DNA of 64,000 bases from Gammaproteobacteria bacterium (GTDB lineage: Bacteria; Pseudomonadota; Gammaproteobacteria; UBA4575), in contig OZ251487.1 in the NCBI GenBank assembly GCA_965242685.1, positions 547,340-611,339 on the forward strand, written 5' to 3'. A model generated the notes under the pieces. That model made no database searches. It saw nothing but the letters and a program-made list of their open reading frames with translations, and was not told where the DNA came from. Numbering within the stretch: position 1 is the first letter of the stretch; each line of letters starts with the position of its first letter. The position numbers and the translations under genes were made by a program. This document shows, in pieces, positions 38,250 through 53,676 of this stretch.

Positions 38250-39305
38250 ATGAAGACGTCATCAGGATCGGTCGGGTTACCGTGGTTGATAACGTTGGCC
38301 GCCTTAGTAGTTGTGATCGCCGGCATGCGCGCGGCGGAAGCCATCGTAGTGCCTTTTTTATTGTCGGTGTTTATCGCGGTGATCAGTGCGCCGGCGCTGC
38401 TGTGGTTGGAAGACCGGCGGGTCCCCCGTTGGCTTGCCATGATAATCGTGTTGGGCGTGATCATCGTGGCGGCGGCGGGGCTGTCCATGCTGATCGGCTC
38501 ATCCATCAAAGACTTTTCCCAGGCCGTCCCTCAATATCAACAACGGTTGTCGGATTTGTTGACGCACGTCAATAGCCGGGTAAGCCGGTATGGTATTGAT
38601 CTATCGGGCATCCTGCTTGACCATCTCAATCCGGCGGCCGCGATGAAGCTTGTCGCCGACTTATTGAACGGCCTGGGAGCAGTGTTTGGAAACGTCTTTC
38701 TTATACTGCTGACGGTAGTATTTATCCTGTTTGAGGCCTCTTCGGTGCCGCACAAGCTGCGTGCCGGCCTGTCCAATGCGGATGAATCGCTCGACGCCTT
38801 TAGCGTCATCGCGGCTAAGATCAATCGGTATCTGGCGATCAAGACGGCTACCAGCTTGGCAACGGGAGCAATCGTAACTATTGCGCTGGCTGTGATAGGA
38901 GTGGATTATCCGTTGCTGTGGGGCGTTATCGCATTTCTGTTCAACTACATTCCCAATATCGGTTCGATCATCGCCGCCGTGCCGGCGATATTGCTGGCGT
39001 TGATTCAACTGGGTGGCGGCGAGGCATTGGTAACGGCCGGCGTGTACGTGGTCGCCAACGTGTTGATCGGTAGCGTAATTGAACCTCGAATGATGGGTAG
39101 GCAGGTGGGTCTGTCGACGTTGGTGGTGTTTCTGTCGCTGGTTTTTTGGGGGTGGGTGTTCGGGCCTGTCGGGATGTTTTTGTCGGTGCCCTTGACGATG
39201 ACGGCGAAGATCGCGGTGGAGAATAATCCGAAGATGCGCTGGTTGGCGGTGTTGTTGGGGAATGAGTTAGCCGGGCGGCCAACTGAACGGGCGGCCGGCG
39301 AGTAG
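38250..39305 (+). CDS. AI-2E family (PerM/UPF0118) transporter
   Basis: 351-aa polytopic protein with 'FNYIPNIGSIIAAVPAILLAL' and 'FWGWVFGPVGMFLSVPLT'. Confidence 0.8.
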   Translation: MKTSSGSVGLPWLITLAALVVVIAGMRAAEAIVVPFLLSVFIAVISAPALLWLEDRRVPRWLAMIIVLGVIIVAAAGLSMLIGSSIKDFSQAVPQYQQRLSDLLTHVNSRVSRYGIDLSGILLDHLNPAAAMKLVADLLNGLGAVFGNVFLILLTVVFILFEASSVPHKLRAGLSNADESLDAFSVIAAKINRYLAIKTATSLATGAIVTIALAVIGVDYPLLWGVIAFLFNYIPNIGSIIAAVPAILLALIQLGGGEALVTAGVYVVANVLIGSVIEPRMMGRQVGLSTLVVFLSLVFWGWVFGPVGMFLSVPLTMTAKIAVENNPKMRWLAVLLGNELAGRPTERAAGE

Positions 39306-39608
39306 GTGGACGTGTAGGTGGAAGACGGTTTGGCCGGCGTTGGCGCCGTTGTTGATGGCTACCCGGTAGGCGTCGCCGCAGCCTAGCTGATCGGCGATGT
39401 CCCGTACCTTTAGGAGTAGGTGGCCAAGCAGGGCCTGGTCTTGGTCGTCGCAGTCGGCGAGTTTGGGGATCGGCTTCTTGGGGATGACGAGTATGTGTGT
39501 CGGGGCTTGGGGGTTGACGTCCTTGAAGGCGAGGCAGAGATCGTCCTCGAAGATGATGTCGGCGGGGATGTCGCGGGCGATGATCCGGCTGAAGATGGTG
39601 TCACTCAT
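39267..39608 (-). CDS. HIT-family (HinT-like) nucleotide hydrolase
   Basis: 113 aa with the histidine triad 'HLHVHLLAG'. Confidence 0.88.
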   Translation of the reverse strand: MSDTIFSRIIARDIPADIIFEDDLCLAFKDVNPQAPTHILVIPKKPIPKLADCDDQDQALLGHLLLKVRDIADQLGCGDAYRVAINNGANAGQTVFHLHVHLLAGRPFSWPPG

Positions 39609-39822
39609 GCGGGGATCGTATCATCTTTACTACGGCACTAAAAGGCGGGGGATAATGGGATTTTAACGGGATATTTCGGGATATATCGGGATGGACGGAA
39701 AAAAGTTAGAAATTACTTTATATTTGTTTTGTAGGCATGGGATAGGCAGAGAAAAGTTTAGATGATGTGAGATGAGTGAGATGGATTGAGATGGATTCGT
39801 AGGGAACCTTACAGGGAAGTTT

Positions 39823-39897
39823 CACAGCGAACCTTGCAGCGAATTTTCACAGCGAACCTTGCAGCGAATTTCATAACGGACATTGCAGCGAATTTTA
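39823..39897. repeat. three tandem copies of a ~25-bp unit (cacagcgaaccttgcagcgaatttt)
   Basis: Copies at 39823..39847, 39848..39871 (near-identical) and 39872..39897 (diverged). Read directly from the sequence. Confidence 0.85.
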
Positions 39898-40302
39898 CAA
39901 CGACAGGGGGGGTTTGCCGGCCTTGGCGCGGATCCAGTTGAGGGAGTTGAGCACCGAGGGCATGGCGACGAGTCTTTGTTCGAGGGCGTATTTGCCCGGA
40001 AAGTCTATCAGGATCAGGCCGATCAGTATGGTTAGCAGTCCCTGCCCCGGGGTGACCAGCATGATGACGCCCAGGCAGACGAGGGCGGCGCCGAGCAGGT
40101 TTTTGATGACGGCGAGGCAGCGGGCGGCGGCGGATCGATGGACTGCCGAGTGAAGTTTGGCGCGGTAGTGCGGTTGGAAGTAGTCGGCGGGGATCTTGGT
40201 TACCAGCCACGGGATGACGGCGAGGCTGACGATGAACAGCAGCAGCGATCCCCATGCCAGTGCCATCAGCAGTTGCTTGTATTGAAATAAGAAGTCGAGC
40301 AT
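39895..40302 (-). CDS. small membrane protein (PGPGW-like?)
   Basis: 135 aa with three hydrophobic helices and 'VTPGQGLLTILIGLILIDFPGK'. The family call is tentative. Confidence 0.45.
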   Translation of the reverse strand: MLDFLFQYKQLLMALAWGSLLLFIVSLAVIPWLVTKIPADYFQPHYRAKLHSAVHRSAAARCLAVIKNLLGAALVCLGVIMLVTPGQGLLTILIGLILIDFPGKYALEQRLVAMPSVLNSLNWIRAKAGKPPLSL

Positions 40303-40540
40303 TCAATCGTTGTTTGTATTTCGAGGAAAGGATACATCATTTGGATACACGCTACCCGCCGAGTGACCAAGCGAGTGGGGAAATAATTATCGTTTACGCG
40401 TATTGACACAAGGGGAAGATCAAGCGACCAAGCGGGGAGCGGTAGTCGCCGTTCCAGTGCAAGAGTTTGGGGCGAAGTTGGGCTGTAAAGGTTTAAGAGT
40501 TGCACTATACTTCCACACTACATGACGTTCACGCTACATT

Positions 40541-43183
40541 ATGGCCAGAAAAAAGAGAGTTACCGGTAGAAAGAAGGCCATTGAGGCCTACACGCACGAT
40601 GATAAGGAGCGGGTGAATAATCCGCCGGTGGGGCTGGTGACGGCGGCGACCGATCCGGCGCCGGCTTCAGAGGGTAGGAAGGCGGGAAAGAAAACTTATC
40701 AGTACGATCCGCACATCGATCCGTCCTTGCAGTGGGCGGGGAAGGCGGAGCGGCTGTCGTTTGAGGTGCCGACGGAGTCGCTGCACGTCCACGAGCGGGT
40801 CGAGGCGGCGACGATCCTGAAGGCGGTGGGCAGGAAGAACGGCGACGACGGCGCGCAGCCGTCTCTATTTGGCACGCCCGAGCAGAATCCGCCTTTGCAT
40901 AAGGCGGTGGAGTTTTACCGGCATCGGCACGGCTGGAGCAATCGGCTGATCGCGGGCGACAGTCTGTTGGTGATGAATTCGTTGTTGGAGAAAGAGGGGA
41001 TGGCGGGGAAGGTGCAGTGCGTGTACATGGATCCGCCCTATGGAATTAAATACGGCAGCAACTTTCAGGCGTTTACGAACAAGCGGGAGGTGCGGGACGG
41101 CAGGGACGAGGATTTGACGGGCGAGCCGGAGACGATACGGGCGTTTCGGGACACGTGGGAGCTGGGGATCCACTCGTATTTGGCGTATATGCGAGACCGG
41201 CTGTGGCTGGCACGGGAGATGTTGACCGAAAGCGGCTCGTGTTTTGTGCAGATCGGCGATAAAAACGTATATCGGATGGGGCTGCTGATGGATGATGTGT
41301 TCGGCGCCGACAACCGCATCACGACGATCACGTATGCCAGCACGGGGGCAAGTTCGGCCAAGATGCTGCCAGACGTAGCAAACTATCTGCTGTGGTACGC
41401 CAAAGATAAGGCTAAGGCCGAGGCCAAGTATCGGCAGTTGTATGAAACGCTGACCCGATCGGAGGTGATCGATCTCTGGTGGCATGTAATGGTGGAGCTG
41501 GCCGACGGAACGTGTAGGAAGCTGACGCAGGAAGAGCGTTTTGATCCGGATGCGCATTTGCCGAAAGGGGCGCGCCTATATAGGCGAGTGCCTCTGGATT
41601 CGCAAGGGGTTTCCACGACCGGACGGTCCGAACCGTATGTTTTCGATGGCCGTACTTTTCATTGCGGAAAAAATCGTCAGTGGGCAGTTTCCAAAGAAGG
41701 GATGGACAGGTTAGCGGCGTTGAACCGATTGGAGCCCGCTGGAAAGTCATTGATGTGGAAGCAATATGAGGACGAAGTACCCGGGCGGCAAGTCAATAAT
41801 GTATGGCCGGTAAGGATGCGTGCAGACAATAAGAAATATGTGGTGCAGACTTCGCCCGAGACGATAAAGCGTTGCATCCTGATGACGACGGATCCGGGCG
41901 ATCTGGTGTTGGATCCGACCTGCGGCAGCGGGACGACGGCGTTTGTCGCCGAGCAGTGGGGGCGACGGTGGATCACGTGCGACACGTCGCGGGTGGCAGT
42001 AGCGGTGGCGAAACAGCGGTTGATGACGGCGGTGTTTGACTATTACCGGCTTGCCCATCCGGATGAAGGCGTGGGCAGGGGGTTTGCGTATCGGCAGGTG
42101 GAGACGGTCTCGCCCCGCATTTTGGGGTATGACGAGCCGAAGACGCCCGTACCGCTGGTCGATCAGCCGTTGAAGGATAGCAAGAAGGCGCGGGTGACGG
42201 GGCCGTTTACGGTGGAGGCGGTGCCGGCGGCGCGAGTGAAGTCGGTGACGGAGGTGATGGAGGGAAATTTGACGCCTGATGTCTCACGTAGTGGCGAGAC
42301 GCTGCAAGCGGTAGACGAGGAGTTTGACGCCGATACTTCTATTTCCCGTTCCGGCGAGACGCTGCGCCAGCAGGAATGGCGGGATGAGCTGTTGAAGTCG
42401 GGGATCCGCGGCAAGCGGGGGCAGCGGATCAGCTTCTCCCGTATCGAGGCGTTTCCGGGGCGGTATCTGCACGCCGATGCGGAAACCCGTGTCGATGAAC
42501 AGGAGGCGGATGAGGAAGGGGGCGGGGGTGAGAGAGCGGTGATCTGCTTCGGGCCGGAATTTGCACCGATGGGAACACGGCAGGTCGGGCGCGCCCTAGA
42601 AGAAGCGAACACGCTGGTACCGAAGCCATCGATGATCGTGTTTTGCGCCTTTCAGTTTGATCCGGAGGCCGCTAAGGACATCGACAAAACCAACTGGCCG
42701 GGGGTGACGCTGCTCAAGGCGCAGATGAACGCCGACCTGCAAACGTATGATCTGAGAAAGAAACAACGGAGCAGCGATAGTTTCTGGCTGATCGGTCAAC
42801 CGGATGTGGGAGTGGAACAGATAATGGAAGGGAAAGACCGCGACAAGTGGCGGGTGGAGGTGCGCGGCTTTGACTATTTCAACACGAAGACGGGGGAGGC
42901 CGGCGTGGAGTCCGGCGACGAAAAACGGATCGCCGTGTGGATGCTGGATACCGACTACGATGGGCGGAGCCTGTATCCGCGCCAGGTGTTTTTCCCGATG
43001 GCGGGGCAGCAGGACGGCTGGGCGCGGCTGGCTAAGAACCTGAAGGCGGAGATCGATGCGGAGTTGATCGAGGCGTATAGAGGCACGGTGTCACTGCCGT
43101 TTAAGGCAGGCGAGAATAGACGGATCGCGGTTAAGATCGTGGATGATAGGGGGATCGAAAGTTTGAAAGTGGTGGAGTTGTGA
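40541..43183 (+). CDS. Type III-like (beta-class) N6-adenine/N4-cytosine DNA methyltransferase, Mod-like
   Basis: Motif IV 'MDPPYG' (D codon at 41030) precedes motif I 'LDPTCGSGTTAFVAEQWGRRWITCD' (from 41912). The ~350-aa C-terminal extension ends 'IAVKIVDDRGIESLKVV', typical of large Mod-like enzymes. Confidence 0.85.
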   Translation: MARKKRVTGRKKAIEAYTHDDKERVNNPPVGLVTAATDPAPASEGRKAGKKTYQYDPHIDPSLQWAGKAERLSFEVPTESLHVHERVEAATILKAVGRKNGDDGAQPSLFGTPEQNPPLHKAVEFYRHRHGWSNRLIAGDSLLVMNSLLEKEGMAGKVQCVYMDPPYGIKYGSNFQAFTNKREVRDGRDEDLTGEPETIRAFRDTWELGIHSYLAYMRDRLWLAREMLTESGSCFVQIGDKNVYRMGLLMDDVFGADNRITTITYASTGASSAKMLPDVANYLLWYAKDKAKAEAKYRQLYETLTRSEVIDLWWHVMVELADGTCRKLTQEERFDPDAHLPKGARLYRRVPLDSQGVSTTGRSEPYVFDGRTFHCGKNRQWAVSKEGMDRLAALNRLEPAGKSLMWKQYEDEVPGRQVNNVWPVRMRADNKKYVVQTSPETIKRCILMTTDPGDLVLDPTCGSGTTAFVAEQWGRRWITCDTSRVAVAVAKQRLMTAVFDYYRLAHPDEGVGRGFAYRQVETVSPRILGYDEPKTPVPLVDQPLKDSKKARVTGPFTVEAVPAARVKSVTEVMEGNLTPDVSRSGETLQAVDEEFDADTSISRSGETLRQQEWRDELLKSGIRGKRGQRISFSRIEAFPGRYLHADAETRVDEQEADEEGGGGERAVICFGPEFAPMGTRQVGRALEEANTLVPKPSMIVFCAFQFDPEAAKDIDKTNWPGVTLLKAQMNADLQTYDLRKKQRSSDSFWLIGQPDVGVEQIMEGKDRDKWRVEVRGFDYFNTKTGEAGVESGDEKRIAVWMLDTDYDGRSLYPRQVFFPMAGQQDGWARLAKNLKAEIDAELIEAYRGTVSLPFKAGENRRIAVKIVDDRGIESLKVVEL

Positions 43184-43251
43184 GTGGAAGGCTTGCGGAA
43201 ATTTTGACGTTTGATGTTGATATTTTTACCGATTTGTAAATATTTGGTTGG

Positions 43252-45969
43252 TTGGTGATGTTGGAAAGAGAGGTAGAGATTGTGGGTGAGACTGTGGGCG
43301 AATTTCGGGGGGCGTATCTTGGCGCGCGTTTTTATAAGTGCGCGTTGCAGGTGAATCCATCTACGTATGCCGAAGAGTATCAGGGGAAACTGGCTCAGAA
43401 AGAAGACGAATACAACCATGAAATTTGGCGGCAGTGCGAAAAAAATGGCATTGAAATTGTAGGGCTTGCCGACCATGGCCAGGTTGAAAGCTCGGAAGGT
43501 TTGCGGAAATTTTTGACAGAAAAGGACATCACCGTGTTTCCAGGGTTTGAGATTGCCAGCTCTGAAAAGATTCACATGGTTTGTCTTTATGCCAAAAATA
43601 CTGACTCGGACACACTCAACGGGTACCTTGGTCAGTTGATGGGTACGAATTTCAAAAAACTTGAACAGCAGCGAACCTACCCATCTTCACTCAGCTGTGA
43701 GGATATCGACAAAAAAATCAAAGAGCAGGATGGCTTCTGGTATGCCGCACACATGACGGGCAGAAACGGTTTATTAAGATTGGATGGCAGCGGTGGTGGC
43801 CTTGCTCATCTGTGGAAAAAAGATGAGTTAGTCATAGCTGGACAAATCCCCGTCAAAATAGAAGGCTTGAGGGATAACTACAGGAAAATTATAGAAAATA
43901 AGAACCCTGATTATGAAAGAAAAAAGCCTATTGTTATTATCAACGCCAAGGATGTATATGAGCCGGAAACATTGTCAAACCCCGCCGCTTCCTGCCTGGT
44001 GAAAATGACCACGCCTACTTTTGATGCCTTCAAAAAAGCGTTTCACGATCCTGAATCCCGCATTCGATTGAACCATGATGTTCCAGAAAAACCTTATTCA
44101 GTCATCAATTCCATTCAATGGGAAGTTGGCGGGTTTTTTAAGGAAAATACACTGTGTTTCTCCAAACATCTGAACACCGTCATTGGTGGGCGCGGTACCG
44201 GCAAGACAACCTTGGTTGAAGGCATACGCTATGTCCTGGGTCTGCCTATACCGAAAGGAAGCGACAAGGAGCTGAATGAGTTTTATAAAAGGAATCTGGG
44301 CGATTCAAAAATTACTCTGCATGTTACTTCAAAGGCACAGGGTCGGCAGCGTTACACGATCAGTAGGAGGTTTGGCGAACATGCGATTGTGAAAAATGCT
44401 GAGGGAGGTATTTCTCATCTCCTTCCGGAAGATATTTTGCCTGACGTTAAGCTATTAGGGCAAAACGAGATACTGGATATTGCAAAAGACGATGCCGAAA
44501 AACTGTCATTGATTCAAAGTTTCTTACCCGATAGCTCCAAGCTTGATGAGAATCTTCAAAGGATTAAACGAGAGATGGCAAACAACAGAGAGCAGCGGGT
44601 CAAGGCGAATGAGGAGTTTGATCGGTTAGAAAGTGAGGTACAGAAGAAACCGAAGCTGGAAGAGCAACTAGAGCATTTTAAGAAACTGGGCATAGAACAA
44701 AAATTAAAGAATGCTAAACAGATTGAGAAGGAAAAAAATATTCAGGCAAGTATTGAGGGGCAGATTGAAAAGGTTGAAGTATGGCTGGAACGTTACGAGG
44801 AAGTGTTTGATTTAGAGTTTTTGCAAGAAACCAGAATTGAATCCTTACCCAATAAAACTATTTTCGAAAAGGAACGAGACATATTTGAGAAGCTTAAAGG
44901 CCATCTGGATACTTCTGTCGGGCAGGCCAATAAAAATTTGGAAGTCGCCATCAATGAACATAGTGGATTAAAAAAAGAGTGGCAGACCGAAGCCGATAAA
45001 ATCAAGGGCGAGCGACAGCAGGCAATTGCTCAATTACCTGGACATGCCGGGAAAACAGGTGAGGAACTGGGAAAGGAGTACACTGATCTTATCCGTTCAC
45101 TGGAATATATAGAGAGGCAAAAAATTGAATACACACGGCAAAAAAAATTGATCAAAACTCTTAAGGAAGAGAGGAAAGAACTGCTGGAAGTATATCGTGA
45201 AACCGCTTTCAATCGTTTTAAGGCTTTGAGAGAAACCGCCGAAGAGTTAAATCGAGACAATCTGAAAGGGAAGGTGAAACTTAAGGTGAAACGTTTTGGC
45301 AATAAGCAGCCTCTTAAAGATTTTTTGTGCACCATCGACGGTATAGGTGAAGCTAAAATAAAATGGTTGGATAAAGTGGAAACCCTGGATTTGTTAGCCT
45401 GGTCAGAATGGATAAAAGAAAAAAATAGAGAGGCCTTTATGGATGCATACCGAGATTATGGGTTGCAAAAGGGCACCGTTGAAAAATTATTGGGTCCTGA
45501 CTTAGGGAAGAGACTCAAACTGGAAGAGATCGAATTGGAAGAGAAGGTTGAGATCGAATTGAATGTTGCGCACGACGGTGGGGAAAATTATAGGCCACTG
45601 GAATATCTTTCCACCGGTCAGCAATGTACCGCTATTCTCAACCTGCTGCTATTAAATTTAAATTGTGATGATCCACTGATCATCGACCAGCCGGAAGATC
45701 ATCTGGATAACGCCTTCATCGCCGACCGTATCGTGCATGATTTAAGAGAATTTAAGACCAGAAGGCAATTTATTTTTACAACCCACAACGCCAATATCCC
45801 GGTTTTTGGCGATGCCGAATTGATCGCGGTGCTAGATAGTGAAAGGAACGAGGGAGAGGTTAAAGAAGCAGGCTCTATTGATAAAAAAGAGATATGCGAA
45901 CAAACGGCCCAGATACTGGAGGGCGGCGAGGCGGCCTTCCAAATGCGCAGACGTAAGTACGGCTATTAA
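43252..45969 (+). CDS. PHP-like domain fused to ABC/SMC-type (RecF/RecN/OLD-class) ATPase with coiled-coil insert
   Basis: N-terminal PHP-like motifs ('GLADHG', 'FPGFEIAS', 'IHMVCLY', 'YAAHM'). Walker A 'GGRGTGKTT' at 44185..44208, a ~400-aa K/E-rich coiled coil, signature 'LSTGQQ', Walker B 'LIIDQPEDHLD' at 45676..45708, and 'TTHNANIPV'. The architecture recalls proteins I remember as TrlF-family AAA-like ATPases (unverified). Confidence 0.7.
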   Translation: MVMLEREVEIVGETVGEFRGAYLGARFYKCALQVNPSTYAEEYQGKLAQKEDEYNHEIWRQCEKNGIEIVGLADHGQVESSEGLRKFLTEKDITVFPGFEIASSEKIHMVCLYAKNTDSDTLNGYLGQLMGTNFKKLEQQRTYPSSLSCEDIDKKIKEQDGFWYAAHMTGRNGLLRLDGSGGGLAHLWKKDELVIAGQIPVKIEGLRDNYRKIIENKNPDYERKKPIVIINAKDVYEPETLSNPAASCLVKMTTPTFDAFKKAFHDPESRIRLNHDVPEKPYSVINSIQWEVGGFFKENTLCFSKHLNTVIGGRGTGKTTLVEGIRYVLGLPIPKGSDKELNEFYKRNLGDSKITLHVTSKAQGRQRYTISRRFGEHAIVKNAEGGISHLLPEDILPDVKLLGQNEILDIAKDDAEKLSLIQSFLPDSSKLDENLQRIKREMANNREQRVKANEEFDRLESEVQKKPKLEEQLEHFKKLGIEQKLKNAKQIEKEKNIQASIEGQIEKVEVWLERYEEVFDLEFLQETRIESLPNKTIFEKERDIFEKLKGHLDTSVGQANKNLEVAINEHSGLKKEWQTEADKIKGERQQAIAQLPGHAGKTGEELGKEYTDLIRSLEYIERQKIEYTRQKKLIKTLKEERKELLEVYRETAFNRFKALRETAEELNRDNLKGKVKLKVKRFGNKQPLKDFLCTIDGIGEAKIKWLDKVETLDLLAWSEWIKEKNREAFMDAYRDYGLQKGTVEKLLGPDLGKRLKLEEIELEEKVEIELNVAHDGGENYRPLEYLSTGQQCTAILNLLLLNLNCDDPLIIDQPEDHLDNAFIADRIVHDLREFKTRRQFIFTTHNANIPVFGDAELIAVLDSERNEGEVKEAGSIDKKEICEQTAQILEGGEAAFQMRRRKYGY

Positions 45970-45971
45970 GG

Positions 45972-47204
45972 ATGTTGAAAAGCGAGGTATTAAAACTCAT
46001 TGGGCAAGGCGAGGGCGCCAAGCTTGAGTTTAAGCGCGATGACGAGCATTCGAAACAACTTGTCAAAGTGCTTGCCAAAGCGATTGTCGCCTTTGCCAAT
46101 ATGAATGGCGGTAAGATTCTGCTCGGTGTCGAGGATGACGGCAAGGTTAGCGGCATCCAACGGGGCAATCTTCAGGAGTGGCTTATGGATACGGTCATCG
46201 GCAGATATGTTCATCCATTTATATTGCCGGATTACGAAGAGGTCGACGTTGAAGGAAAGCGGGTGGCCGTTGTAACCGTTCCTCAAGGTACCAGCAAGCC
46301 ATACTTTCTCAAAGATAAGGATCGCGAAGATGTTTATGTTCGGTATGGAAATGTTTGCAAGTTGGCGGGGCTTGAACAACTGGCCCGGTTGCTTGATTCG
46401 GGAGGTTTGTTAGCCGCAGAGACGTTTCCCGTACATGGTTCCTCTATCGAGGATTTGGATGAGCGGCGTTATGTCGAGTATTTTGAGAGGGTGCTAAAAG
46501 ACCCCGAGGCAAAAGACTGGGGAAAGGAAGACTGGCAGCAAATATTATTTAATCAAAGTTTTCTTGTAGGGGACGATGCCGCCTCATCGGTTTGTAGTTA
46601 TTTTGCTTATGCGCTGTTTGCCAAGCGGCCCGGATTGAGGCTGCCGAAGGCTGAGGCACGTATCACGATATACCCTGGCGAAGATAAGGATTACCATAGC
46701 GATTATGACGAAGTCCTGGACGCGCCTTTTGTTGGGTTTCGCGGCGAGAACTATCCCACGAGTCAGGCTATCGAGCCTACCTTGCATGAAAGGTTGATCG
46801 CAGCTATTAAGCGGCATTTCAGCAAAGAGGAATTGCAGGGAACGGCGCGGCGACGATTCTGGGACTATCCTCCTAAAGTCGTCAGGGAATTGATAATCAA
46901 TGCACTCGTGCACAGGGACTGGACAAAGAGTAACTATGTGCGCGTAACCGTTTATAGCAATCGCCTGGAAGTTACCAGCCCCGGCGGGCTGCCTAACGGA
47001 CTGACCATAGAAAAGATCAAGAGCGGTGCGCAAGTGTCACGCAATCCACAGTGCGTGAGAATTTTCAGAAATTATGAGTATTTGGAAGATGAGGGCATGG
47101 GTATACGGCGCAAGGTTATCCCGTTGATGCGTGAACATAATGGCACAGAGCCGGAGTTTGAGGACTCTGAACATCATTTCAAAGTGACGCTGTGGAAGAA
47201 ATAG
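45972..47204 (+). CDS. AlbA_2 (Schlafen-type DNA/RNA-binding) + HATPase_c_4-like domain protein
   Basis: N-terminal 'GEGAKLEFKRD...AFANMNGGKILLGVEDDG' and C-terminal 'ELIINALVHRDW...VTSPGGLPNG'. Starts 2 nt after the upstream stop and overlaps the res start by 13 nt. Confidence 0.7.
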   Translation: MLKSEVLKLIGQGEGAKLEFKRDDEHSKQLVKVLAKAIVAFANMNGGKILLGVEDDGKVSGIQRGNLQEWLMDTVIGRYVHPFILPDYEEVDVEGKRVAVVTVPQGTSKPYFLKDKDREDVYVRYGNVCKLAGLEQLARLLDSGGLLAAETFPVHGSSIEDLDERRYVEYFERVLKDPEAKDWGKEDWQQILFNQSFLVGDDAASSVCSYFAYALFAKRPGLRLPKAEARITIYPGEDKDYHSDYDEVLDAPFVGFRGENYPTSQAIEPTLHERLIAAIKRHFSKEELQGTARRRFWDYPPKVVRELIINALVHRDWTKSNYVRVTVYSNRLEVTSPGGLPNGLTIEKIKSGAQVSRNPQCVRIFRNYEYLEDEGMGIRRKVIPLMREHNGTEPEFEDSEHHFKVTLWKK

Positions 47205-49990
47205 ACCATCTCATCATCAATTCTCCCTACGAGAAACCTAAGGAGCATTGGTTTTATAAGGTTGAGACTAAAAGATTCAAGAAGGAAGAAGGACGACGGC
47301 GGGCGGGGTATCTGATAGCGACGCCCGGTTTGAAGGGGCGGGGGCATGACGACCCGGGCAGGTTCGTGGAGATTCCGCTCGTCAATAAGATTCGCGGCTG
47401 CGTCGATGCCTGGCGCGAGGCGGGTTATCCGGGGGTAAGCGGGATGACCAAACGCCTGTTGGATTATTGGAACGATCCGGATGAGCGGGACGGCAAGCGG
47501 TTTTTCTTCTGTCAACTGGAGGCGGTGGAGACGCTGATCTGGTTTACCGAGGCGCCCGACAGCGAGAAGGTCGGGATCGAGATGCCCTCGGATGGCAGTG
47601 ACTTCTTGCGCCTGTGTGCCAAGATGGCGACCGGCACCGGTAAGACGGTGGTGATGGCGATGGTGATCGCCTGGCATATCCTGAACAAGGTGACGGATCG
47701 GCGGGACGTGCGTTTTTCCAAGAATATTTTCATCGTGGCGCCCGGTCTGACGGTTAAGAGCCGCCTGGCGGTGTTACAGCCCGCCGACGCCAATAATTAC
47801 TACGAGGAATTTGGCATCGTGCCCACAGACCTGATGGACAAGCTGCGGCAGGGCAAGGTACGGGTTTGCAACTGGCACGCACTCGGTTGGGAGAGCGAGG
47901 AACGGATCGCAAAGAAGAAGGGGGTGGACAAGCGCGGCGCAAAGAGTGACGAGGCGTACACCCGCGAAGTGCTTGACGAGATGGCCAATGCCCGCAATAT
48001 ATTGGTGATCAACGACGAGGCGCATCATGCCTGGCGCGTCAATCCCGAGGCAGAGGGGAAGTATCTGCGACAGAGGGATATGAAGGACAGCGCCGAGGAG
48101 GCGACGATCTGGGTGGGCGGATTGGATCGCCTACACAGGACGCGCGGTATTTTGGCCTGCTATGATTTTTCGGCGACGCCGTTGGCGCCAACCGGAAAGA
48201 AAAGCGTCGAAGAAGCGCTTTTCGGGTGGATCATCAGCGATTTTGGGTTGAATGATGCGATTGAATCGGGGTTGGTGAAGACGCCCCGCGTGGTGGTGCG
48301 GGACGATGCGCTACCGGACGCCAAGACTTATAAATCGCGCCTTTATCACATCTACAGCAATCCCAAGGTGAAGGATGACCTGAATCGCAAGGCAAGCCCC
48401 GAGGAACCGTTGCCGTCTTTGGTGCTCAATGCGTATTGTCTGCTTGGGTATGACTGGAAGGAGACCGCCCGGGACTGGAAAGATGAAAAGGGTGGGCCGC
48501 CGCCTGTGATGATCACCGTCGCCAACCGTACCGAGACCGCCGCCAGGATCAAGTACGCGCTGGAACGAAATCAGATATGGGTAGAGGAATTGTGTGATCC
48601 GGAACGCATTCTGCACATCGACTCCAAGGTGCTGGCGGAGGCCGAGACGGCGGATGAGGCGGTGGCGTTGAATGGGAATGGGAATGGCGGAGGAGGGGAA
48701 ACCCGTAGTAAAAAGCCCACCAAGGCGGCAAGGGCGGAGCAGTTACGCAGGCAGGTGGATACGGTTGGCAAGCCCGGGGCGCCCGGGGAGCAGATCCAAA
48801 AGGTTATTTCGGTGGGGATGCTTTCCGAAGGCTGGGACGCCAAGAACGTTACCCACATTATGGGCTTGCGTGCCTTTACCAGTCAGTTGTTGTGCGAGCA
48901 GGTGGTGGGCAGGGGGCTGCGAAGGATGTCTTATGAGGTGGATGAAAGTAGCGGCTTGTTTGCGCCGGAATATGTCAATGTCTTCGGTGTGCCGTTCAGT
49001 TTTTTGCCGCATGAGGATAGTGGCAGTACACCGGCGCCCACCTTACCGAAGACGCGTATTTATGCCGATCCCGACAAGGGCAAGTTTGAGATCCGCTGGC
49101 CGAACGTCATCCATATCGAGCATACCTATCGCCCGCGCCTTTTTGTGGATTGGAAGAAGGTAGAAACGTTGGAGCTGGAGGCCGGTAATACGCCCAGCAT
49201 TGCGGAATTGGCGGATGTCATTGCAGGGAAGCCCGATGTTACGAAGGTCAAAGACATAGACCTGAGTAAATTGATACGAGGACAACGATTGCAGGAAGTT
49301 GTCTTCAAGATGGCGCGGGAGACTTATGAGCGGATGAAGCCGGACTGGAAGGGCGGCAAGGAGTTTTTGTTGGCGCAACTCGTTGGGCTGACCGAGGAAT
49401 TTATCCATTCCGACCGTATCGTTATCCATCCGGAACTTTTTAATCGGGATGATTTGCGGCGGCGTGTGATGCTGATCTTGCACATGAGCGAGGTCTTGAA
49501 TCACCTGTGGCAGGCGATTCGGTTTGAGAATACCGAGAGGCTGAAGCCGGTTTTTGACCAGCGTCCGTTCCGTGCCACCGGCGACATGCGTGCCTGGTAT
49601 ACCGGCAAGCCCTGTGAATATACGCGGCGGTCGCATATCAATCTCTGTGTCTGTGACAGCACTTGGGAATCGTCCGAGGCCTTTGAGCTTGACCGTAACC
49701 CGGCGGTGGACGCCTGGGTGAAAAACGATCATCTGGGGTTTGAGGTTCTCTATATCTACAATGGCGTCGTGAAGAAGTATCGGCCCGATTTTATTATCCG
49801 CCTGAAGTCGGGTGAGTTTCTGGTACTGGAGACCAAAGGGCAGGAAACGCAACAGGACAAGGCCAAGCGCAAGTTTTTGGATGAGTGGGCGCGGGCGGTC
49901 AACGGGCAGGGCGGGTTGGGTACGTGGCGCACCGCCGTTTCAAAGGCGCCGGCGGATGTTAGGGATATTCTTCATCGTTACGGGGACTGA
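47192..49990 (+). CDS. Type III-like restriction subunit (SF2 helicase + C-terminal PD-(D/E)xK nuclease), Res-like
   Basis: Motif I 'MATGTGKT' (47624..47647) and motif II 'DEAHH' (48014..48028). Motif VI-like 'VVGRGLRR'. C-terminal 'RPDF...LVLETKG' with D at 49787, E at 49829 and K at 49835. Confidence 0.85.
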   Translation: MEEIDHLIINSPYEKPKEHWFYKVETKRFKKEEGRRRAGYLIATPGLKGRGHDDPGRFVEIPLVNKIRGCVDAWREAGYPGVSGMTKRLLDYWNDPDERDGKRFFFCQLEAVETLIWFTEAPDSEKVGIEMPSDGSDFLRLCAKMATGTGKTVVMAMVIAWHILNKVTDRRDVRFSKNIFIVAPGLTVKSRLAVLQPADANNYYEEFGIVPTDLMDKLRQGKVRVCNWHALGWESEERIAKKKGVDKRGAKSDEAYTREVLDEMANARNILVINDEAHHAWRVNPEAEGKYLRQRDMKDSAEEATIWVGGLDRLHRTRGILACYDFSATPLAPTGKKSVEEALFGWIISDFGLNDAIESGLVKTPRVVVRDDALPDAKTYKSRLYHIYSNPKVKDDLNRKASPEEPLPSLVLNAYCLLGYDWKETARDWKDEKGGPPPVMITVANRTETAARIKYALERNQIWVEELCDPERILHIDSKVLAEAETADEAVALNGNGNGGGGETRSKKPTKAARAEQLRRQVDTVGKPGAPGEQIQKVISVGMLSEGWDAKNVTHIMGLRAFTSQLLCEQVVGRGLRRMSYEVDESSGLFAPEYVNVFGVPFSFLPHEDSGSTPAPTLPKTRIYADPDKGKFEIRWPNVIHIEHTYRPRLFVDWKKVETLELEAGNTPSIAELADVIAGKPDVTKVKDIDLSKLIRGQRLQEVVFKMARETYERMKPDWKGGKEFLLAQLVGLTEEFIHSDRIVIHPELFNRDDLRRRVMLILHMSEVLNHLWQAIRFENTERLKPVFDQRPFRATGDMRAWYTGKPCEYTRRSHINLCVCDSTWESSEAFELDRNPAVDAWVKNDHLGFEVLYIYNGVVKKYRPDFIIRLKSGEFLVLETKGQETQQDKAKRKFLDEWARAVNGQGGLGTWRTAVSKAPADVRDILHRYGD

Positions 49991-52900
49991 GGGTTACGCG
50001 GCTTATTTTCTCCGTGGCGTATTTTCCCCCGCTGCCTATTTTCCCTGTGGCGTGCTCGGCGTACTCGTTCAGCCAGCAGAATGTATTGACCAGCTTCATC
50101 TGCTCCACCGTGCCGCAAGGGATTTCCAGCAGGTTGGGATTGGCGACTACAACGGCTAGACACTGGGCGCGGGAGACGGCGACATTTAGGCGGTTCTTGC
50201 TGTAGAGAAACTCGATGTTGCGCGGCAGGTCTGCGGCGCTGGATGTCACCATAGAGATCAGGACGATGGGCGCCTCCTGTCCCTGGAATTTGTCGACGGT
50301 GCCGACCTTGGCGTTCTCCGGCAGGATGGAGCGCAGATAATTCACCTGCACATTGTAAGGCGTGACCACCAGGATGTCGTTCTCGGTGATCGGGCGCGTG
50401 CCGCCGTCGCGATCGGTGAAGGCCTGCCCAAGCAGGGTTTGGTATTTGGCTTTGATGATCCGGCCTTCCTCGACGCTCTTTTGCGAACAGCCTTCATGCC
50501 GGGCCGGGATCATCGCTATGCCTTCGTTGGGGAGATCAATGCCTTGTAGATTCAGATTACGCGCGGCGGTGCTTTCGTGGGCGGTCAGGCGGCCATCATA
50601 GAAGGCATCGGAAATAAATTGGCAAATGCCGGGGCGCATGCGGTACGTCCGGCCAAGAAAAATGCCGCGTTCGGCAGGGATGGTAGAGTGATCGCCAAGT
50701 AGGAATTCCAGCACCGATAGTCCGGCCTCGCCCGGATGCGTGCCTTGAATGGGCTGGCCCAGCTGCATTTGATCGCCCACCAGGATAATGTTTTTAGCGG
50801 CGGTGGACATGGCCACGACGTTGGCGGTTGCAACCTGTCCGGCCTCATCGATAAAGAGATAGTCCAAGCGACCATCAAAATGCGGGTTGGCGAAGGTCCA
50901 TGCCGTTCCGGCAAACAGATCGGCGCCGAGGTTGATGTTGTCGGTCTTGGTTTCGGGAGTAATGAAGCGGCCATTAAAGAAGGTTTCAGCGTTACCGCCA
51001 CTGGCCTTTTTGATGCCATCGAAGTGCACGCCTTTTTCGGCGGCGACATTTTCCACCTTTTCCAAGAGGTTGTGGATGGCCTTGTGGGAGTTGGAAGTAA
51101 CGCCGATCTTTTTGCCGCGTTTGATCAAGTCGACGATGATGTGGCTGCTGGTGTAGGTCTTACCGGCCCCCGGCGGGCCTTGAATGAAGAGATAGCTGTT
51201 TTCCAGCGCGGCGATGGCTGCCAGCGCATCTGTTTGCAAATCATCGGAGGTGATGATCGCCTCGCCGGGCGGCTTGTCGTGAATGCGCGGCACACGGCGC
51301 GCCAGCAGTTCGGTTGCGGCGCGGGCGGTGTCGGGCGATTGCAATACCTGATCGGCATAGCGGTAGAGGGCCGCGCGGATGATCTTGCTGTCAATCGGGC
51401 CCGGCGGGCCGATGGAGAGGCTTGCCGGCAACGGGTCTTTGTTTGTCCCGCGCCTGATCCTGACGATGCGGGTATCCTCGTCGATCTCGACGAGGGTGCC
51501 GGCGGTCTTCATGGCGGCGACGTCAACGGCCTGTGCGCCGACCTTTAGCTTGTATTCCTGTGACGGGAAACGGTAGGTATAGATCAGGGAGCGTTTGTCC
51601 GGTTCGGGCGCACCGATCTGTTGTAGGCCGCCCAGGCATTCGGTGTCGTCGATTAGCTCGTCTTCAAACTTGTTTTGACGTTCGAAGCCGCTCCACCATT
51701 GCGGCTTGGCTTCCCGGTTGTGAAACTCTAACAGATGGGCCAGCAGATGGGATAGCAGATGGGATGGGCGTTCATCGTTCGGCGGCGGGTCTTCACCGGT
51801 CACGCCCAGACGGGTCTGGTAGTGCTCATATTCGATCTCCCAGTCTTTACGCTGTAGCTGTTCGTCTTCGGCATCTTCCGGCACGCCCTTAAACCATGCC
51901 GTATCTTGAGGCTTGAGGGTCAGCAGCCAATCACGCAGCAGGTGGGTGGAAACGCAGTCTACCTCGTTATAACCGGCGATCGCTTGCAGCAATTCATCGG
52001 CGCCGGTCTCGCGCCATTCGTTGTAAAAGATGATGCTATCCGCCGCCGTTGCCACCGTATTGTCTCGTTCGTCCATGTAGAAGGTTTCCAAGTTTTTGAT
52101 GGAGTAGCCGGGTTCGGAGGTGCGGATGCTCTCGCGCACCACCAGGTACAGGTCGATGAATTTTTGATTGCGGAGTAGGTTGTCCAGCCGTTCCTCGCAA
52201 ACCGCATAGCGGCAGGCCAGCCGTTTCAGCGCGGTCGTTTCATAGTGGTTGTAGTGGTAGATGTGGGCGTGCGGGTGCGCGGCCAGATGGTCGGCCAGAA
52301 AGCCCATAAAGCGTTGGAAGGTCGCTTTCTCCTGTTCGTGATCGTGTGCCCAGAAGGGTTTGAAGCGCTTTTCGCCGTGCTTGGAGTAATAGACGCCAAA
52401 CAGGTATTCCAGGCCGTTCGGGTAGAGTGGATCGCCCTCCATATCGAAGAACAGGTCGCCATCATCGGGCACAGGCAGGCGGGCGAAGCCCTTGTTTGAC
52501 GGGAATGTGTTCGATGGAAATGCGTCGGGCGGGCACGGGATGATCTCGCATTGGTCCTCGCCCGTGGTGGCTTTGTGATGCTGTAAGACCGCCTGTGCGC
52601 GCAGACGCTGGAATACGTCACGGTTTAGGTCGGGGATTTTTTTGTGCGGCGATGTTGCCGCCAGATCGGCAACGGTGCGGATGCCGGTGTTGCGCAGCTT
52701 GTCCATCTGAGCGCGTTGGATATTGGCCACGAGGCTTAAATGGTCGTCTTTTTCCCAGCGCGCTGTACAGCCATCGCGCCACTGGCAGGCGTTACAATGG
52801 CCGCATGGCTCGGGGTAGGAATTGGTAGGCAGGTTTTGAAGATAGCTTTCAAAACGGCCTTTGGCGCGGCGGTAGTAGTAGAAGAAATCGGCCACCCGGA

Positions 52901-53434: not shown

Positions 53435-53583
53435 ACTATTTTTTATAAAACGCCATTAGAGGGAAAGGGGGGGGTGTTTTTATAGAGAGGGGAAGTCGGT
53501 TGCGAATAGCAAACCGCAATTACCGGCGGGCTTTTGAGGTGATGGTATCCAGGGGCATAGGAAAGTTTATTATTTTACGTCAA

Positions 53584-53676
<93 letters not shown>

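What the first reader, a model, noticed from the sequence alone, without database searches (positions are those of the whole stretch)
40541..49990. Type III-like mod/res pair split by a PHP-like/ABC-SMC ATPase and an AlbA_2-HATPase protein: candidate four-gene defence operon
**Seen:**
- Four co-directional genes have a 68-nt gap, a 2-nt gap and a 13-nt overlap. There is no room for internal promoters or terminators.
- Gene 1 is a beta-class MTase, with DPPY before the FxGxG-type 'DPTCGSGTT'.
- Gene 4 is an SF2 helicase (MATGTGKT, DEAHH) with a C-terminal PD...E-x-K nuclease motif.
- Between them lie two extra genes. One is a 905-aa protein with an N-terminal PHP-like phosphoesterase domain and a Walker A/coiled-coil/'LSTGQQ'/Walker B ATPase. 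The other is a 410-aa AlbA_2 (Schlafen-type) + HATPase_c_4-like protein.

**Established:**
- Canonical Type III R-M needs only Mod and Res.
- ABC/OLD/SMC-class ATPases (Gabija GajA, Septu PtuA, Lamassu LmuB, PARIS AriA) and Schlafen/AlbA_2 modules are recurrent parts of anti-phage systems.

**Inference:**
- This looks like a composite system. A methylation-based self/non-self module may be wired to an ATPase/phosphoesterase effector and a nucleic-acid sensor, giving a second or abortive layer or a regulator of restriction.
- It is reminiscent of the helicase-methylase-ATPase ('Hma') gene sets I recall from PADLOC. I cannot verify identity, and I do not recall the AlbA_2 gene or the PHP fusion as part of that description.
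Basis: partly seen in the sequence, partly recalled or inferred. Interest (0 to 1): 0.85.

Follow-up and report, generated by a model that had tools for sequence, protein, structure and literature searches.

The report
Defence cassette nested in restriction operon
The four genes are real, but they are best read as two systems: a Type III-like restriction-modification pair whose mod-res junction acts as a swap-in slot for defence genes, holding here a mobile two-gene module (a PHP/SMC-like ATPase, TrlF, plus a Schlafen RNase-ATPase).

Summary
In detail: all four ORFs, their spacing (68, 2 and -13 nt) and every quoted motif are present.

The "integrated four-gene system" reading is only partly supported.
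- **Genes 1 and 4** are a Mod/Res pair of NCBI's "BPTD_3080 family" of Type III-like R-M.
- **Gene 2** is a curated-family TrlF ATPase, a distant Ppl relative. It has a PHP fold with a variant metal site and an SMC/Rad50-like head with a coiled coil.
- **Gene 3** is a prokaryotic Schlafen RNase fused to a GHKL ("minimal histidine kinase") ATPase, with an invariant Ex4ExK triad.

Genes 2 and 3 form a co-inherited pair. In 65 of 80 TrlF loci from many phyla, gene 3 follows gene 2 directly. Only a few of those loci have this mod/res. Others lie inside Type I R-M, BREX or DUF1156-methylase clusters, after classical Type III R-M, or beside housekeeping genes.

Conversely, 46 of 73 BPTD_3080 mod-res pairs carry other cargo at the same junction: toxin-antitoxin pairs, TIR proteins, OLD-like ATPases, Type II R-M, ubiquitin-like systems and Dsr1. 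Duplicated mod-3'/res-5' scars lie between cargo modules. A close relative has an empty slot that still keeps gene 3's last 60 nt.

Verdict: a new variant of the known "defence genes nested in R-M operons" theme. No function has been tested.

The parts
40541..43183 (+). mod: beta-class N6/N4 DNA methyltransferase of the BPTD_3080-type Type III-like R-M. It is the carrier gene on the left side of the cargo slot.
   Evidence: Pfam N6_N4_Mtase 2.8e-31. PADLOC MTase_III PDLC03632 9e-147. DPPY at aa 164-167 lies before DPTCGSGTT at aa 458-466. A mod homolog lies upstream of res in 73 of 80 family loci. GC3 is 0.73, like host genes. dN/dS is 0.27 against L161.
43184..43251 (+). Left junction of the cargo slot: the mod-trlF spacer.
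   Evidence: It holds a weak promoter-like match at 43217-43244. A 19/20-nt repeat of trlF codons 82-88 lies at 43186-43205. Homology with the empty-slot relative L162 ends at about 43189.
43252..45969 (+). trlF (cargo gene 1): variant-PHP domain (about 43315-44124), then an SMC/Rad50-like ABC ATPase head split by a coiled coil of about 240 aa (aa 426-666).
   Evidence: NCBIfam TrlF NF045780 scores 491.9 bits (cut-off 350). Ppl NF042955 scores only 177 bits (cut-off 1000). PADLOC Ppl 4.9e-35. Walker A is at 44185-44208, LSTGQQ at 45607-45624 and Walker B at 45676-45699. The canonical PHP motif HxH is replaced by an invariant QxN (aa 33, 35). GC3 is 0.46. Public gene calls start at the ATG at 43258.
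45972..47204 (+). Cargo gene 2: prokaryotic Schlafen (AlbA_2) RNase domain fused to a GHKL/HATPase_c_4 ATPase (pSlfn-HisKinase class).
   Evidence: Pfam SLFN_AlbA_2 9.5e-25 and HATPase_c_4 6.2e-21. The Ex4ExK triad E14/E19/K21 (46011-46034) is invariant, or E-to-D, in 66 homologs. The GHKL N-box E306...N310 is conserved. PADLOC matches the N-terminal region of SLFN-type pAgo and Aga proteins. The gene follows trlF directly in 65 of 80 loci. dN/dS is 0.26.
47142..47204 (+). Right junction of the slot: the last ~60 nt of cargo gene 2, which contain the res start region (GTG at 47192).
   Evidence: This stretch is retained almost unchanged in the empty-slot relative L162 and in L161.
47192..49990 (+). 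res: SF2 helicase plus C-terminal PD-(D/E)xK nuclease, BPTD_3080 family restriction endonuclease. It is the carrier gene on the right side of the slot.
   Evidence: NCBIfam NF046055 scores 1091.5 bits (cut-off 800). Pfam ResIII. Motifs: MATGTGKT, DEAHH at 48014-48028, QVVGRGLRR, and PD/ETK at 49781-49840. Identity is about 67% across phyla. dN/dS is 0.21-0.23.

Best explanation
The block is a nested arrangement of two defence systems that share one operon.

**Carrier.** The carrier is a Type III-like restriction-modification pair of the BPTD_3080 family. Mod is a beta-class N6/N4 methyltransferase. Res is an SF2 helicase with a PD-(D/E)xK nuclease. In this family the short mod-res junction is a recombination-prone cargo slot. 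Cassettes enter, stack and leave, apparently by recombination through the conserved mod 3' end and res 5' end.

**Cargo.** Here the slot holds an autonomous, horizontally mobile two-gene module:
- TrlF, a Ppl-like protein with a variant PHP phosphoesterase domain and an SMC/Rad50-like ABC ATPase with a coiled coil.
- A Schlafen RNase fused to a GHKL ATPase.

**Shown.** Gene and domain identities, conserved catalytic motifs, tight co-inheritance of the pair, its independence from this R-M, the variability of the slot, the scars, the distinct composition of the cargo, and purifying selection on all four genes.

**Inferred.**
- The cargo is co-transcribed from the mod promoter.
- Mod/Res gives methylation-based restriction as a first line.
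- The pair acts independently as a second line. By analogy with Ppl and SMC-like sensors, TrlF would sense aberrant DNA or DNA ends, or a change in the nucleotide pool. The Schlafen-GHKL partner would act as an ATP-dependent, oligomerisation-gated tRNA/RNA nuclease that aborts infection.
For: **Family assignments.**

**Autonomy of the pair.**
- In 65 of 80 TrlF loci, spanning bacteria and an ANME-1 archaeon, the Schlafen gene lies right after trlF. The median gap is 9 nt and identity co-varies with r = 0.93.
- Only L005, L007 and L013 have full mod/res flanks.
- The pair is also nested between hsdS and hsdR (L031, L032, L039, L051). It lies between pglX and a PglZ-position gene plus brxL (L026, L027, L029), and in BREX clusters in L011 and L023.
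- It follows classical Type III mod-res (L016, L017, L048) and lies in DUF1156-methylase/SNF2 clusters (L052, L057, L061, L065, L066, L080).
- It also sits next to housekeeping genes such as cstA.
- TrlF occurs alone on plasmids.

**The slot.**
- Of 73 mod-res pairs, 23 are adjacent and 46 carry more than 400 nt of cargo. Cargo ORFs of at least 100 aa run 72 on the + strand and 14 on the - strand.
- Cargo families: AAA_15 ATPase + PIN-like, HepT/MNT, VapBC-like PIN, TIR (PDC-S35), M78 + DUF4411, Type II R-M, split Dsr1, and ubiquitin-like clusters.

**Scars.**
- Extra mod-3' and res-5' fragments lie between cargo modules in L081, L131, L155, L163 and L005.
- L162's empty slot keeps gene 3's last 60 nt.
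- L161 keeps a trlF 3' stub, but a Type II R-M replaces trlF.

**Composition and selection.**
- Cargo GC3 is about 0.2-0.25 below mod, res and host genes, here and in L163, L149, L161 and L031.
- dN/dS is 0.16-0.27 for all genes, including res next to an empty slot.

**Mechanistic analogies from the literature.** Ppl (review PMC12904381), Schlafen tRNases (PMC13462974, bioRxiv 10.1101/2025.07.24.666596), and GHKL-driven tetramerisation that activates a Schlafen nuclease (bioRxiv 10.64898/2026.05.29.728809).
Against: - No activity of any of the four proteins was tested.
- The pair nests inside methylation-based systems in at least 25 of 80 loci, and 36 of 80 have such genes within 10 kb. This could reflect functional coupling rather than hitch-hiking.
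- Gene junctions are very tight: the slfn-res overlap is 13 nt here, the mod-trlF overlap is 4 nt in L163, and the gap is 17 nt in L149. Expression is therefore coupled.
- Window and L163 show similar divergence for all four genes (65-71% aa), which is compatible with long co-residence.
- TrlF's PHP site is non-canonical (HxH replaced by QxN, and the final His lost). A Ppl-like exonuclease activity is therefore uncertain.
- The recombination mechanism is inferred from scars, not demonstrated.
- The 80+80 loci are the best-scoring matches, not a random sample.
Confidence: 0.62

Rival explanations
1. Facultative functional coupling, in either a guard or an end-processing form. The TrlF-Schlafen pair is a generic second layer that works with whatever methylation-based restriction system hosts it. 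One option is that TrlF acts on DNA ends or ssDNA produced by restriction. The other is that it senses anti-restriction proteins (as PrrC does in EcoprrI, or PARIS in BREX) and then unleashes the Schlafen RNase.
For: - The pair is nested within or abutting Type I, classical Type III, BPTD_3080, BREX and DUF1156 systems in many loci.
- There is precedent in PrrC embedded in EcoprrI (PMC12707154) and in PARIS-like modules in BREX (PMC12839542).
- Published surveys call Schlafen-HisKinase proteins embedded in BREX and BREX-related loci 'backup effectors' (PMC12839542). They also speculate that R-M-linked Schlafens sense structures made by DNA cleavage (PMC13462974).
- Ppl is reported to need 3'-OH DNA ends (PMC12904381).
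- Gene 2 gives weak PADLOC hits to AriA, GajA and LmuB.
Against: - About 44 of 80 pairs have no detected methylation-based neighbour within 10 kb, using my limited probe set.
- TrlF occurs alone on plasmids.
- The hosts are mechanistically diverse, and BREX is not known to cut DNA. That argues against direct physical coupling.
- The same slot holds many unrelated cargoes.
Confidence: 0.25
2. Obligate four-component system. Mod, TrlF, Schlafen-GHKL and Res would form one machine in which methylation status gates the ATPase/phosphoesterase and the RNase.
For: - The genes are co-directional with minimal spacing, and terminator-like and promoter-like matches are at chance level.
- The same four-gene order recurs in L149/L007 and L163.
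Against: - Mod-res pairs of the family are adjacent in 23 of 73 loci and hold other cargo in 46 of 73.
- L162 lost the cargo and kept res under purifying selection.
- L161 swapped trlF for a Type II R-M.
- Most TrlF-Schlafen pairs lack this mod/res.
- The cargo has a distinct GC3.
Confidence: 0.05
3. Non-defence role. TrlF would be a single-chain SbcCD/Mre11-Rad50 analogue, with a PHP nuclease in place of Mre11, acting in DNA repair. The Schlafen-GHKL protein would be a regulator, and the position inside an R-M operon would be incidental.
For: - The ATPase head matches Rad50, SMC and RecN structures.
- COG2865-type proteins have often been annotated as transcriptional regulators (my own knowledge).
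Against: - The distribution is patchy and mobile across phyla and on plasmids.
- The genes have a foreign composition.
- They recur inside defence operons.
- TrlF is related to the anti-phage protein Ppl.
- The Schlafen catalytic triad is conserved.
Confidence: 0.05

Closest known systems
Classical Type III R-M (EcoP1I/EcoP15I)
   Same: - Mod is beta-class with the target-recognition region between motifs IV and I.
- Res has an N-terminal SF2 helicase and a C-terminal PD-(D/E)xK nuclease.
- mod lies upstream of res in one operon.
   Different: - Res belongs to a separate curated family (BPTD_3080). It scores only 22 bits on the Type III Res model NF012027, whose cut-off is 564.
- Mod carries an extra C-terminal region of about 370 aa.
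- mod and res are separated by cargo here and in most family members.
Ppl (single-gene anti-phage PHP-ATPase from P2-like prophage hotspots)
   Same: - It has the same N-terminal PHP plus SMC-like ABC ATPase architecture.
- Homology is detectable: PADLOC Ppl 4.9e-35 and NCBIfam Ppl 4e-52 over aa 90-645.
- A Ppl-like protein in a P2-like Yersinia phage aligns along its whole length.
   Different: - Gene 2 falls far below the Ppl cut-off (177 against 1000 bits) and belongs to the TrlF family.
- In TrlF the PHP motif HxH is QxN and the last His is lost. The phage protein and the L081 homolog keep the canonical ligands.
- TrlF usually has a Schlafen-GHKL partner (65 of 80 loci), whereas Ppl is a single gene.
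Prokaryotic Schlafen-HisKinase(-HTH) proteins embedded in BREX and R-M loci
   Same: - Gene 3 has the Schlafen/AlbA_2 domain with the Ex4(E/D)xK triad and a GHKL 'minimal histidine kinase' domain.
- This architecture is the commonest pSlfn class (bioRxiv 10.1101/2025.07.24.666596).
- It is reported inside BREX, BREX-related and R-M loci (PMC12839542, PMC13462974).
   Different: - Those surveys, as far as I could read them, do not mention a PHP/SMC-like partner. PHP and SMC are absent from the relevant texts.
- No member of this class has been shown experimentally to defend.
- Here the protein co-evolves with TrlF.
PrrC in EcoprrI and PARIS-like modules in BREX (defence genes nested in R-M-type operons)
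   Same: A second-line effector is encoded inside the operon of a methylation-based system (PMC12707154, PMC12839542).
   Different: - PrrC depends physically on its host enzyme, whereas this cargo occurs without any R-M.
- The host here is a Type III-like pair.
- The insertion site is one defined junction that exchanges many different cassettes and bears recombination scars.
Hma (helicase-methylase-ATPase) in PADLOC
   Same: The locus contains a helicase, a methylase and an ATPase.
   Different: No Hma model appears among the PADLOC hits for genes 2-4. The helicase is a restriction endonuclease of a defined family, and the ATPase belongs to separate cargo.

Membership tests
BPTD_3080 family restriction endonuclease (NCBIfam NF046055) | Full-length match at or above the curated cut-off (800 bits) | tested here: met
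   1091.5 bits, covering aa 5-928 of 932.
BPTD_3080-type R-M | A cognate N6_N4 Mod gene lies upstream on the same strand | tested here: met
   A mod homolog lies upstream in 73 of 80 family loci and in the window.
Classical Type III R-M | Beta-class Mod (motif IV before motif I) | tested here: met
   DPPY at aa 164-167 and DPTCGSGTT at aa 458-466.
Classical Type III R-M | Res with SF2 helicase motifs and a C-terminal PD-(D/E)xK nuclease | tested here: met
   MATGTGKT, DEAHH, QVVGRGLRR, and PD...ETK at aa 865-882.
Classical Type III R-M | Res matches the curated Type III endonuclease model (NF012027, cut-off 564) | tested here: not met
   22 bits. PADLOC REase_III hits are weak, the best being 5.7e-9.
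Classical Type III R-M | Cleavage needs two inversely oriented unmethylated sites, with hemimethylation of one strand | not testable with these tools
   This needs biochemistry and methylome data.
TrlF family AAA-like ATPase (NCBIfam NF045780) | Full-length match at or above the curated cut-off (350 bits) | tested here: met
   491.9 bits, covering aa 24-904. Plasmid homologs are annotated as TrlF by PGAP.
Ppl anti-phage protein | Match at or above the curated cut-off (NF042955, 1000 bits) | tested here: not met
   177.3 bits.
Ppl anti-phage protein | PHP domain fused to an SMC-like ABC ATPase | tested here: met
Ppl anti-phage protein | Canonical PHP metal ligands (HxH ... DxH), as in the P2-like phage homolog | tested here: not met
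   CALQVNP and INAKDV are invariant across TrlF. The phage protein has DLHIHS and SDAHS.
Ppl anti-phage protein | NTP-inhibited 3'-5' ssDNA exonuclease activity | not testable with these tools
   The activity is known only from the review PMC12904381.
Prokaryotic Schlafen nuclease (pSlfn-HisKinase class) | Schlafen/AlbA_2 domain with the Ex4(E/D)xK catalytic motif | tested here: met
   E14, E19 and K21 are conserved in 66 of 66 homologs, with E19 being D in 3. The motif is as defined in bioRxiv 10.1101/2025.07.24.666596.
Prokaryotic Schlafen nuclease (pSlfn-HisKinase class) | C-terminal GHKL/histidine-kinase-like ATPase domain | tested here: met
   HATPase_c_4 6.2e-21. The conserved N-box is E306..N310. 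PDB 3lmm matches at 3.2e-11.
Hma system (PADLOC) | Helicase and ATPase components match Hma models | tested here: not met
   No Hma model appears among the hits for genes 2, 3 and 4. Only the best 25 of 59 hits were visible for gene 1.
MADS | A multi-gene mad1-8 set | tested here: not met
   Gene 2 gives only partial hits to mad3 (4e-16) and mad8 (1.8e-4). No other mad components were found.
PrrC-type R-M guard | The cargo is found only together with its host R-M | tested here: not met
   The pair occurs without any detected R-M in about 44 of 80 loci, and TrlF occurs alone on plasmids.

The most novel reading that the evidence does not exclude
This reading has two linked claims.

1. BPTD_3080-type R-M operons act as integrase-free carriers for defence cassettes. 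The unusually conserved mod 3' end and res 5' end (Res is about 67% identical across phyla) would serve as homology arms. Through them, cassettes are exchanged, stacked and deleted between lineages, and each cassette is expressed from the R-M promoter.
2. The TrlF + Schlafen-GHKL dyad is an undescribed two-gene defence system that preferentially lodges inside methylation-based systems. It would use their products (DNA ends) or guard them against anti-restriction, with an SMC-like sensor switching on a tRNA-cleaving Schlafen.
Probability: 0.3. Interest if true: 0.75.

Novelty: new variant of a known kind. Interest (0 to 1): 0.55.

Why it matters
- **How to read such loci.** A tight four-gene "operon" should not be taken as one machine. 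Here comparative genomics splits it into a carrier and a cargo.
- **A way to find defence genes.** The mod-res junction of one very widespread R-M family (more than 8000 clustered Res proteins) appears to be a defined, easily searched hotspot. It already collects Type II R-M, TIR, OLD-like, ubiquitin-like, Dsr1, toxin-antitoxin and TrlF-Schlafen cassettes, plus several ORFs with no annotation. That makes it a cheap way to find new defence genes.
- **A candidate partner for an untested Schlafen class.** The commonest prokaryotic Schlafen architecture (Schlafen-HisKinase) has no demonstrated trigger. A co-evolving PHP/SMC-like partner is a concrete candidate sensor that can be tested.
- **A natural variant of Ppl.** TrlF's conserved change from HxH to QxN in the PHP site is a natural variant of the Ppl nuclease and deserves biochemistry.

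Tried and rejected
- **Literature.** Searches for "TrlF" and "BPTD_3080" found nothing relevant. A search for mod-res cargo in Type III systems also found nothing. The primary Ppl paper and Krishnan et al. 2020 (NAR 48:10045, ABC-ATPase conflict systems) are not held. Krishnan et al. is cited by PMC12839542 for Schlafen-linked systems and may already describe a PHP-ABC + Schlafen dyad, so I cannot exclude that.
- **Solved structures.** A sequence search of solved structures found nothing for Res. For full-length TrlF it found only Rad50/SMC heads.
- **Structure searches with the full-length model.** Foldseek against PDB and viral libraries returned only SMC/Rad50-like proteins and hid the PHP domain. 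A separate N-terminal model was needed.
- **Neighbour census.** A Pfam census of all neighbours exceeded the size limit, so it was rerun on loci without a known R-M context.
- **Antisense ORFs.** Those at 40865-41557, 42955-43575, 47174-47677 and 49043-49852 have no family hits and were dismissed.
- **RNA families.** Rfam finds only the two tRNAs in 39000-54500.
- **Mobile-element boundaries.** No flanking repeats suggest a transposon or integron-type boundary around the cargo. Only a 19/20-nt repeat was found.
- **Hma and MADS.** Both were rejected from the PADLOC hits.
- **Control not run.** I did not measure mod-res spacing in classical Type III families, because the locus finder reaches only close relatives from a single query.

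Full report
**1. Observation**

The four ORFs are exactly as described: 40541-43183, 43252-45969, 45972-47204 and 47192-49990, all on the + strand. The gaps are 68 nt and 2 nt, followed by a 13-nt overlap.

Translation confirms every quoted motif:
- Gene 1: DPPY before DPTCGSGTT.
- Gene 2: GGRGTGKT, LSTGQQ and LIIDQPED.
- Gene 4: MATGTGKT, DEAHH, QVVGRGLRR and PD...ETK.

Pfam gives N6_N4_Mtase, SMC_N/AAA_23/AAA_21, SLFN_AlbA_2 + HATPase_c_4, and ResIII.

The PHP-like domain of gene 2 has no Pfam hit, but it is real.
- In a profile search of aa 22-291, every hit listed (E up to 10) is a PHP-family structure, though only the top three are significant.
- An AlphaFold model (pLDDT 88.6) best matches EndoQ, RNase AM, PHP phosphoesterases and Pol III alpha PHP domains.
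- The rest of the protein models as an SMC/Rad50-type head with a coiled coil of about 240 residues.

Promoter-like and terminator-like matches in the region are at chance level. No antisense ORF or Rfam family competes with this reading.

**2. What the genes are**

- **Gene 4** passes the curated NCBIfam model "BPTD_3080 family restriction endonuclease" (1091 bits, cut-off 800). It fails the classical Type III Res model (22 bits, cut-off 564).
- **Gene 1** is called a Type III methyltransferase by PADLOC (9e-147).
- **Gene 2** passes NCBIfam "TrlF family AAA-like ATPase" (492 bits, cut-off 350). It is only a distant relative of the anti-phage protein Ppl (177 bits, cut-off 1000; PADLOC Ppl 4.9e-35).
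- **Gene 3** has the architecture now called pSlfn-HisKinase. The Schlafen triad Ex4ExK (E14, E19, K21) is invariant in 66 homologs, and the GHKL N-box is conserved. The motif is as defined in bioRxiv 10.1101/2025.07.24.666596 and PMC13462974.

One difference from Ppl stands out. All TrlF proteins have CALQVNP where canonical PHP enzymes have DLHxH, and they lack the last His of DxH. A Ppl-like protein in the hotspot of a P2-like Yersinia phage, and a distant homolog in L081, keep the canonical ligands.

**3. Genes 2 and 3 are an autonomous pair**

I examined 80 genome loci with TrlF homologs (one genome per species). They include Nitrospirota, Proteobacteria, Firmicutes, Chloroflexota, Bacteroidota and an ANME-1 archaeon.
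- In 65 of them a gene-3 homolog lies directly downstream. The median gap is 9 nt, and the identities of the two genes co-vary (r = 0.93).
- Only L005, L007 and L013 have full mod/res flanks. L004 and L006 have remnants.

The pair sits in many other contexts:
- between hsdS and hsdR of Type I R-M (L031, L032, L039, L051);
- between pglX and a PglZ-position gene plus brxL in BREX (L026, L027, L029), and in BREX clusters in L011 and L023;
- after classical Type III mod-res (L016, L017, L048);
- in DUF1156-methylase/SNF2-helicase clusters (L052, L057, L061, L065, L066, L080);
- beside housekeeping genes (for example cstA in L001, L002 and L008).

Overall, 36 of 80 loci have methylation-type defence genes within 10 kb, using my limited probe set. 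On plasmids TrlF occurs alone, for example in X. citri plB and S. epidermidis p1.

**4. The mod-res junction is a cargo slot**

I examined 80 loci with BPTD_3080 Res homologs. Of these, 73 have mod upstream.
- In 23 the two genes are adjacent (60 nt or less apart).
- In 46 (63%) more than 400 nt lies between them.
- ORFs of at least 100 aa in that interval run 72 co-directional and 14 opposite.

The cargo is diverse and defence-like:
- AAA_15/NsnB-like ATPase + PIN-like protein (10 loci);
- HepT/MNT;
- VapBC-like PIN pairs;
- a TIR protein equal to PADLOC PDC-S35 (7 loci);
- Peptidase_M78 + DUF4411;
- Bro-N;
- a split Dsr1;
- C5 methylase sets.

Closer relatives, found through their exact proteins, show rapid turnover:
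- **L161** is syntenic with the window (Res 84% identical at the protein level). Its slot holds a complete Type II R-M (REase_II 1.4e-111) plus the Schlafen gene, with only a trlF 3' stub left.
- **L162** (Res 87%) has an empty 128-nt slot that still contains the last 60 nt of gene 3.
- **L163** (Res 70%) stacks three cassettes over 9 kb: TrlF-Schlafen, an AAA_15 pair, and a ubiquitin-like cluster (Multi_ubiq, E2, JAB-E1, BubE).
- **L167 and L168** hold the AAA_15 pair plus the ubiquitin-like cluster. **L169** holds a C5-methylase Type II R-M.

Between stacked cassettes there are extra copies of the mod 3' end and the res 5' end (L081, L131, L155, L163, L005). Such scars are expected if cassettes move with their flanking homology. 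This mechanism is inferred.

**5. Composition and selection**

- In the window, GC3 is 0.73 for mod and 0.70 for res, like host genes at about 0.69. It is 0.46 for trlF and 0.54 for slfn. The same offset appears in L163, L149, L161 and L031.
- All four genes are under purifying selection (dN/dS 0.16-0.27). This includes res next to the empty slot in L162.
- The slot content changed at dS of about 0.3-0.4.

**6. Interpretation**

The best-supported reading is a carrier and a cargo. A Type III-like R-M operon carries, and probably co-transcribes, an independent TrlF + Schlafen-GHKL module.

The mechanism of the cargo is inferred from relatives:
- Ppl is described as an NTP-inhibited 3'-5' ssDNA exonuclease that needs 3'-OH ends (review PMC12904381).
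- Prokaryotic Schlafens cleave tRNA to abort infection (PMC13462974; bioRxiv 10.1101/2025.07.24.666596).
- In a Schlafen-Argonaute fusion, ATP binding to the GHKL domain drives the oligomerisation that builds the active nuclease (bioRxiv 10.64898/2026.05.29.728809).

I therefore propose that TrlF is the DNA- or nucleotide-state sensor, and possibly a nuclease, while the Schlafen-GHKL protein is the RNase effector.

The main rival is facultative coupling with the host restriction system, through end processing or guarding against anti-restriction. It keeps real weight because the pair nests so often inside methylation-based systems, and because PrrC/EcoprrI and PARIS-in-BREX are precedents (PMC12707154, PMC12839542). 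An obligate four-protein machine is unlikely.

**7. Novelty**

- The parts are known families. Schlafen-HisKinase proteins embedded in BREX and R-M loci are already published as "backup effectors" (PMC12839542, PMC13462974).
- Two things were not found in the searchable literature. One is the co-evolving TrlF-Schlafen dyad. The other is the defined, scarred cargo slot between mod and res of the BPTD_3080 family.
- One likely relevant paper (Krishnan et al. 2020) could not be read.
- I rate the finding a new variant of a known kind, of moderate interest. No function has been tested.

Noticed in passing
window 49959-53434 (- strand): A gene convergent with res overlaps its 3' end by 32 nt. It encodes a TM0106-type RecB-like nuclease with an RNase_H_2-like domain and an SF1 helicase. 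PADLOC gives MkoA/MkoC-like helicase hits (4.6e-46). Here it is split into two frames (49959-53114 and 52736-53434). The 92%-identical ortholog in L162 is one 1157-aa gene, so this is a probable frameshift or pseudogene. The gene is absent from the syntenic L161.
   Followed up: partly
window 43186-43205 and 43494-43513: A 19/20-nt direct repeat links the spacer just after the mod stop with trlF codons 82-88. It does not extend further on alignment. It may be a recombination scar or chance.
   Followed up: partly
window 53584-53942; L161 12830-12931: tRNA-Ser(GCT) and tRNA-Arg(ACG) bound the right side of the R-M/helicase block. In L161, res is followed almost directly by the same tRNA-Ser. 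The left flank (AI-2E transporter, 38250-39305) is shared. The region therefore behaves as a variable island next to tRNA genes, and no integrase was seen.
   Followed up: partly
L163 5254-10004; L167 4221-8640; L168 3991-8392: Three relatives share a slot cargo. It is an AAA_15 (NsnB/PDC-M55A-like) ATPase plus a ~165-aa protein, followed by a ubiquitin-like conjugation cluster (Multi_ubiq, Prok-E2_E, JAB/ThiF, and BubE in L163).
   Followed up: partly
L161 6343-8453; L169 3429-6550: Complete Type II R-M systems are nested inside the Type III-like R-M operon, giving an R-M within an R-M. L161 has an N6_N4 methylase plus an REase_II (1.4e-111). L169 has a C5 methylase plus a HATPase_c_3-type REase_II (2.4e-92).
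   Followed up: partly
L150 6143-9861 (- strand within the slot): A split Dsr1-like system lies on the opposite strand between mod and res. It is a SIR2_2 protein plus a 601-aa protein that matches the Dsr1 C-terminal region (1.5e-89).
   Followed up: no
L167 1-1419: Fragments resembling a decayed TrlF-like ATPase (SMC_N/AAA_15/AAA_21) and a 61-aa HATPase_c_4 piece lie just upstream of mod. They may be a remnant of a TrlF-Schlafen pair outside the slot.
   Followed up: no
L081 3479-7263: A distant version of the cargo also sits in a BPTD_3080 slot, flanked by res-5' and mod-3' scars. Its ATPase is 25% identical to gene 2 over aa 248-903 and has a canonical HxH PHP motif. Its AlbA_2/HATPase_c_4 protein is 30% identical to gene 3. 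The dyad therefore has at least two deep lineages.
   Followed up: partly
window 31897-36176 (- strand): A run of genes with sulfotransferase (Sulfotransfer_3) and weak arylsulfotransferase-like hits, plus two large ORFs with no family hit. They are unrelated to the finding.
   Followed up: no
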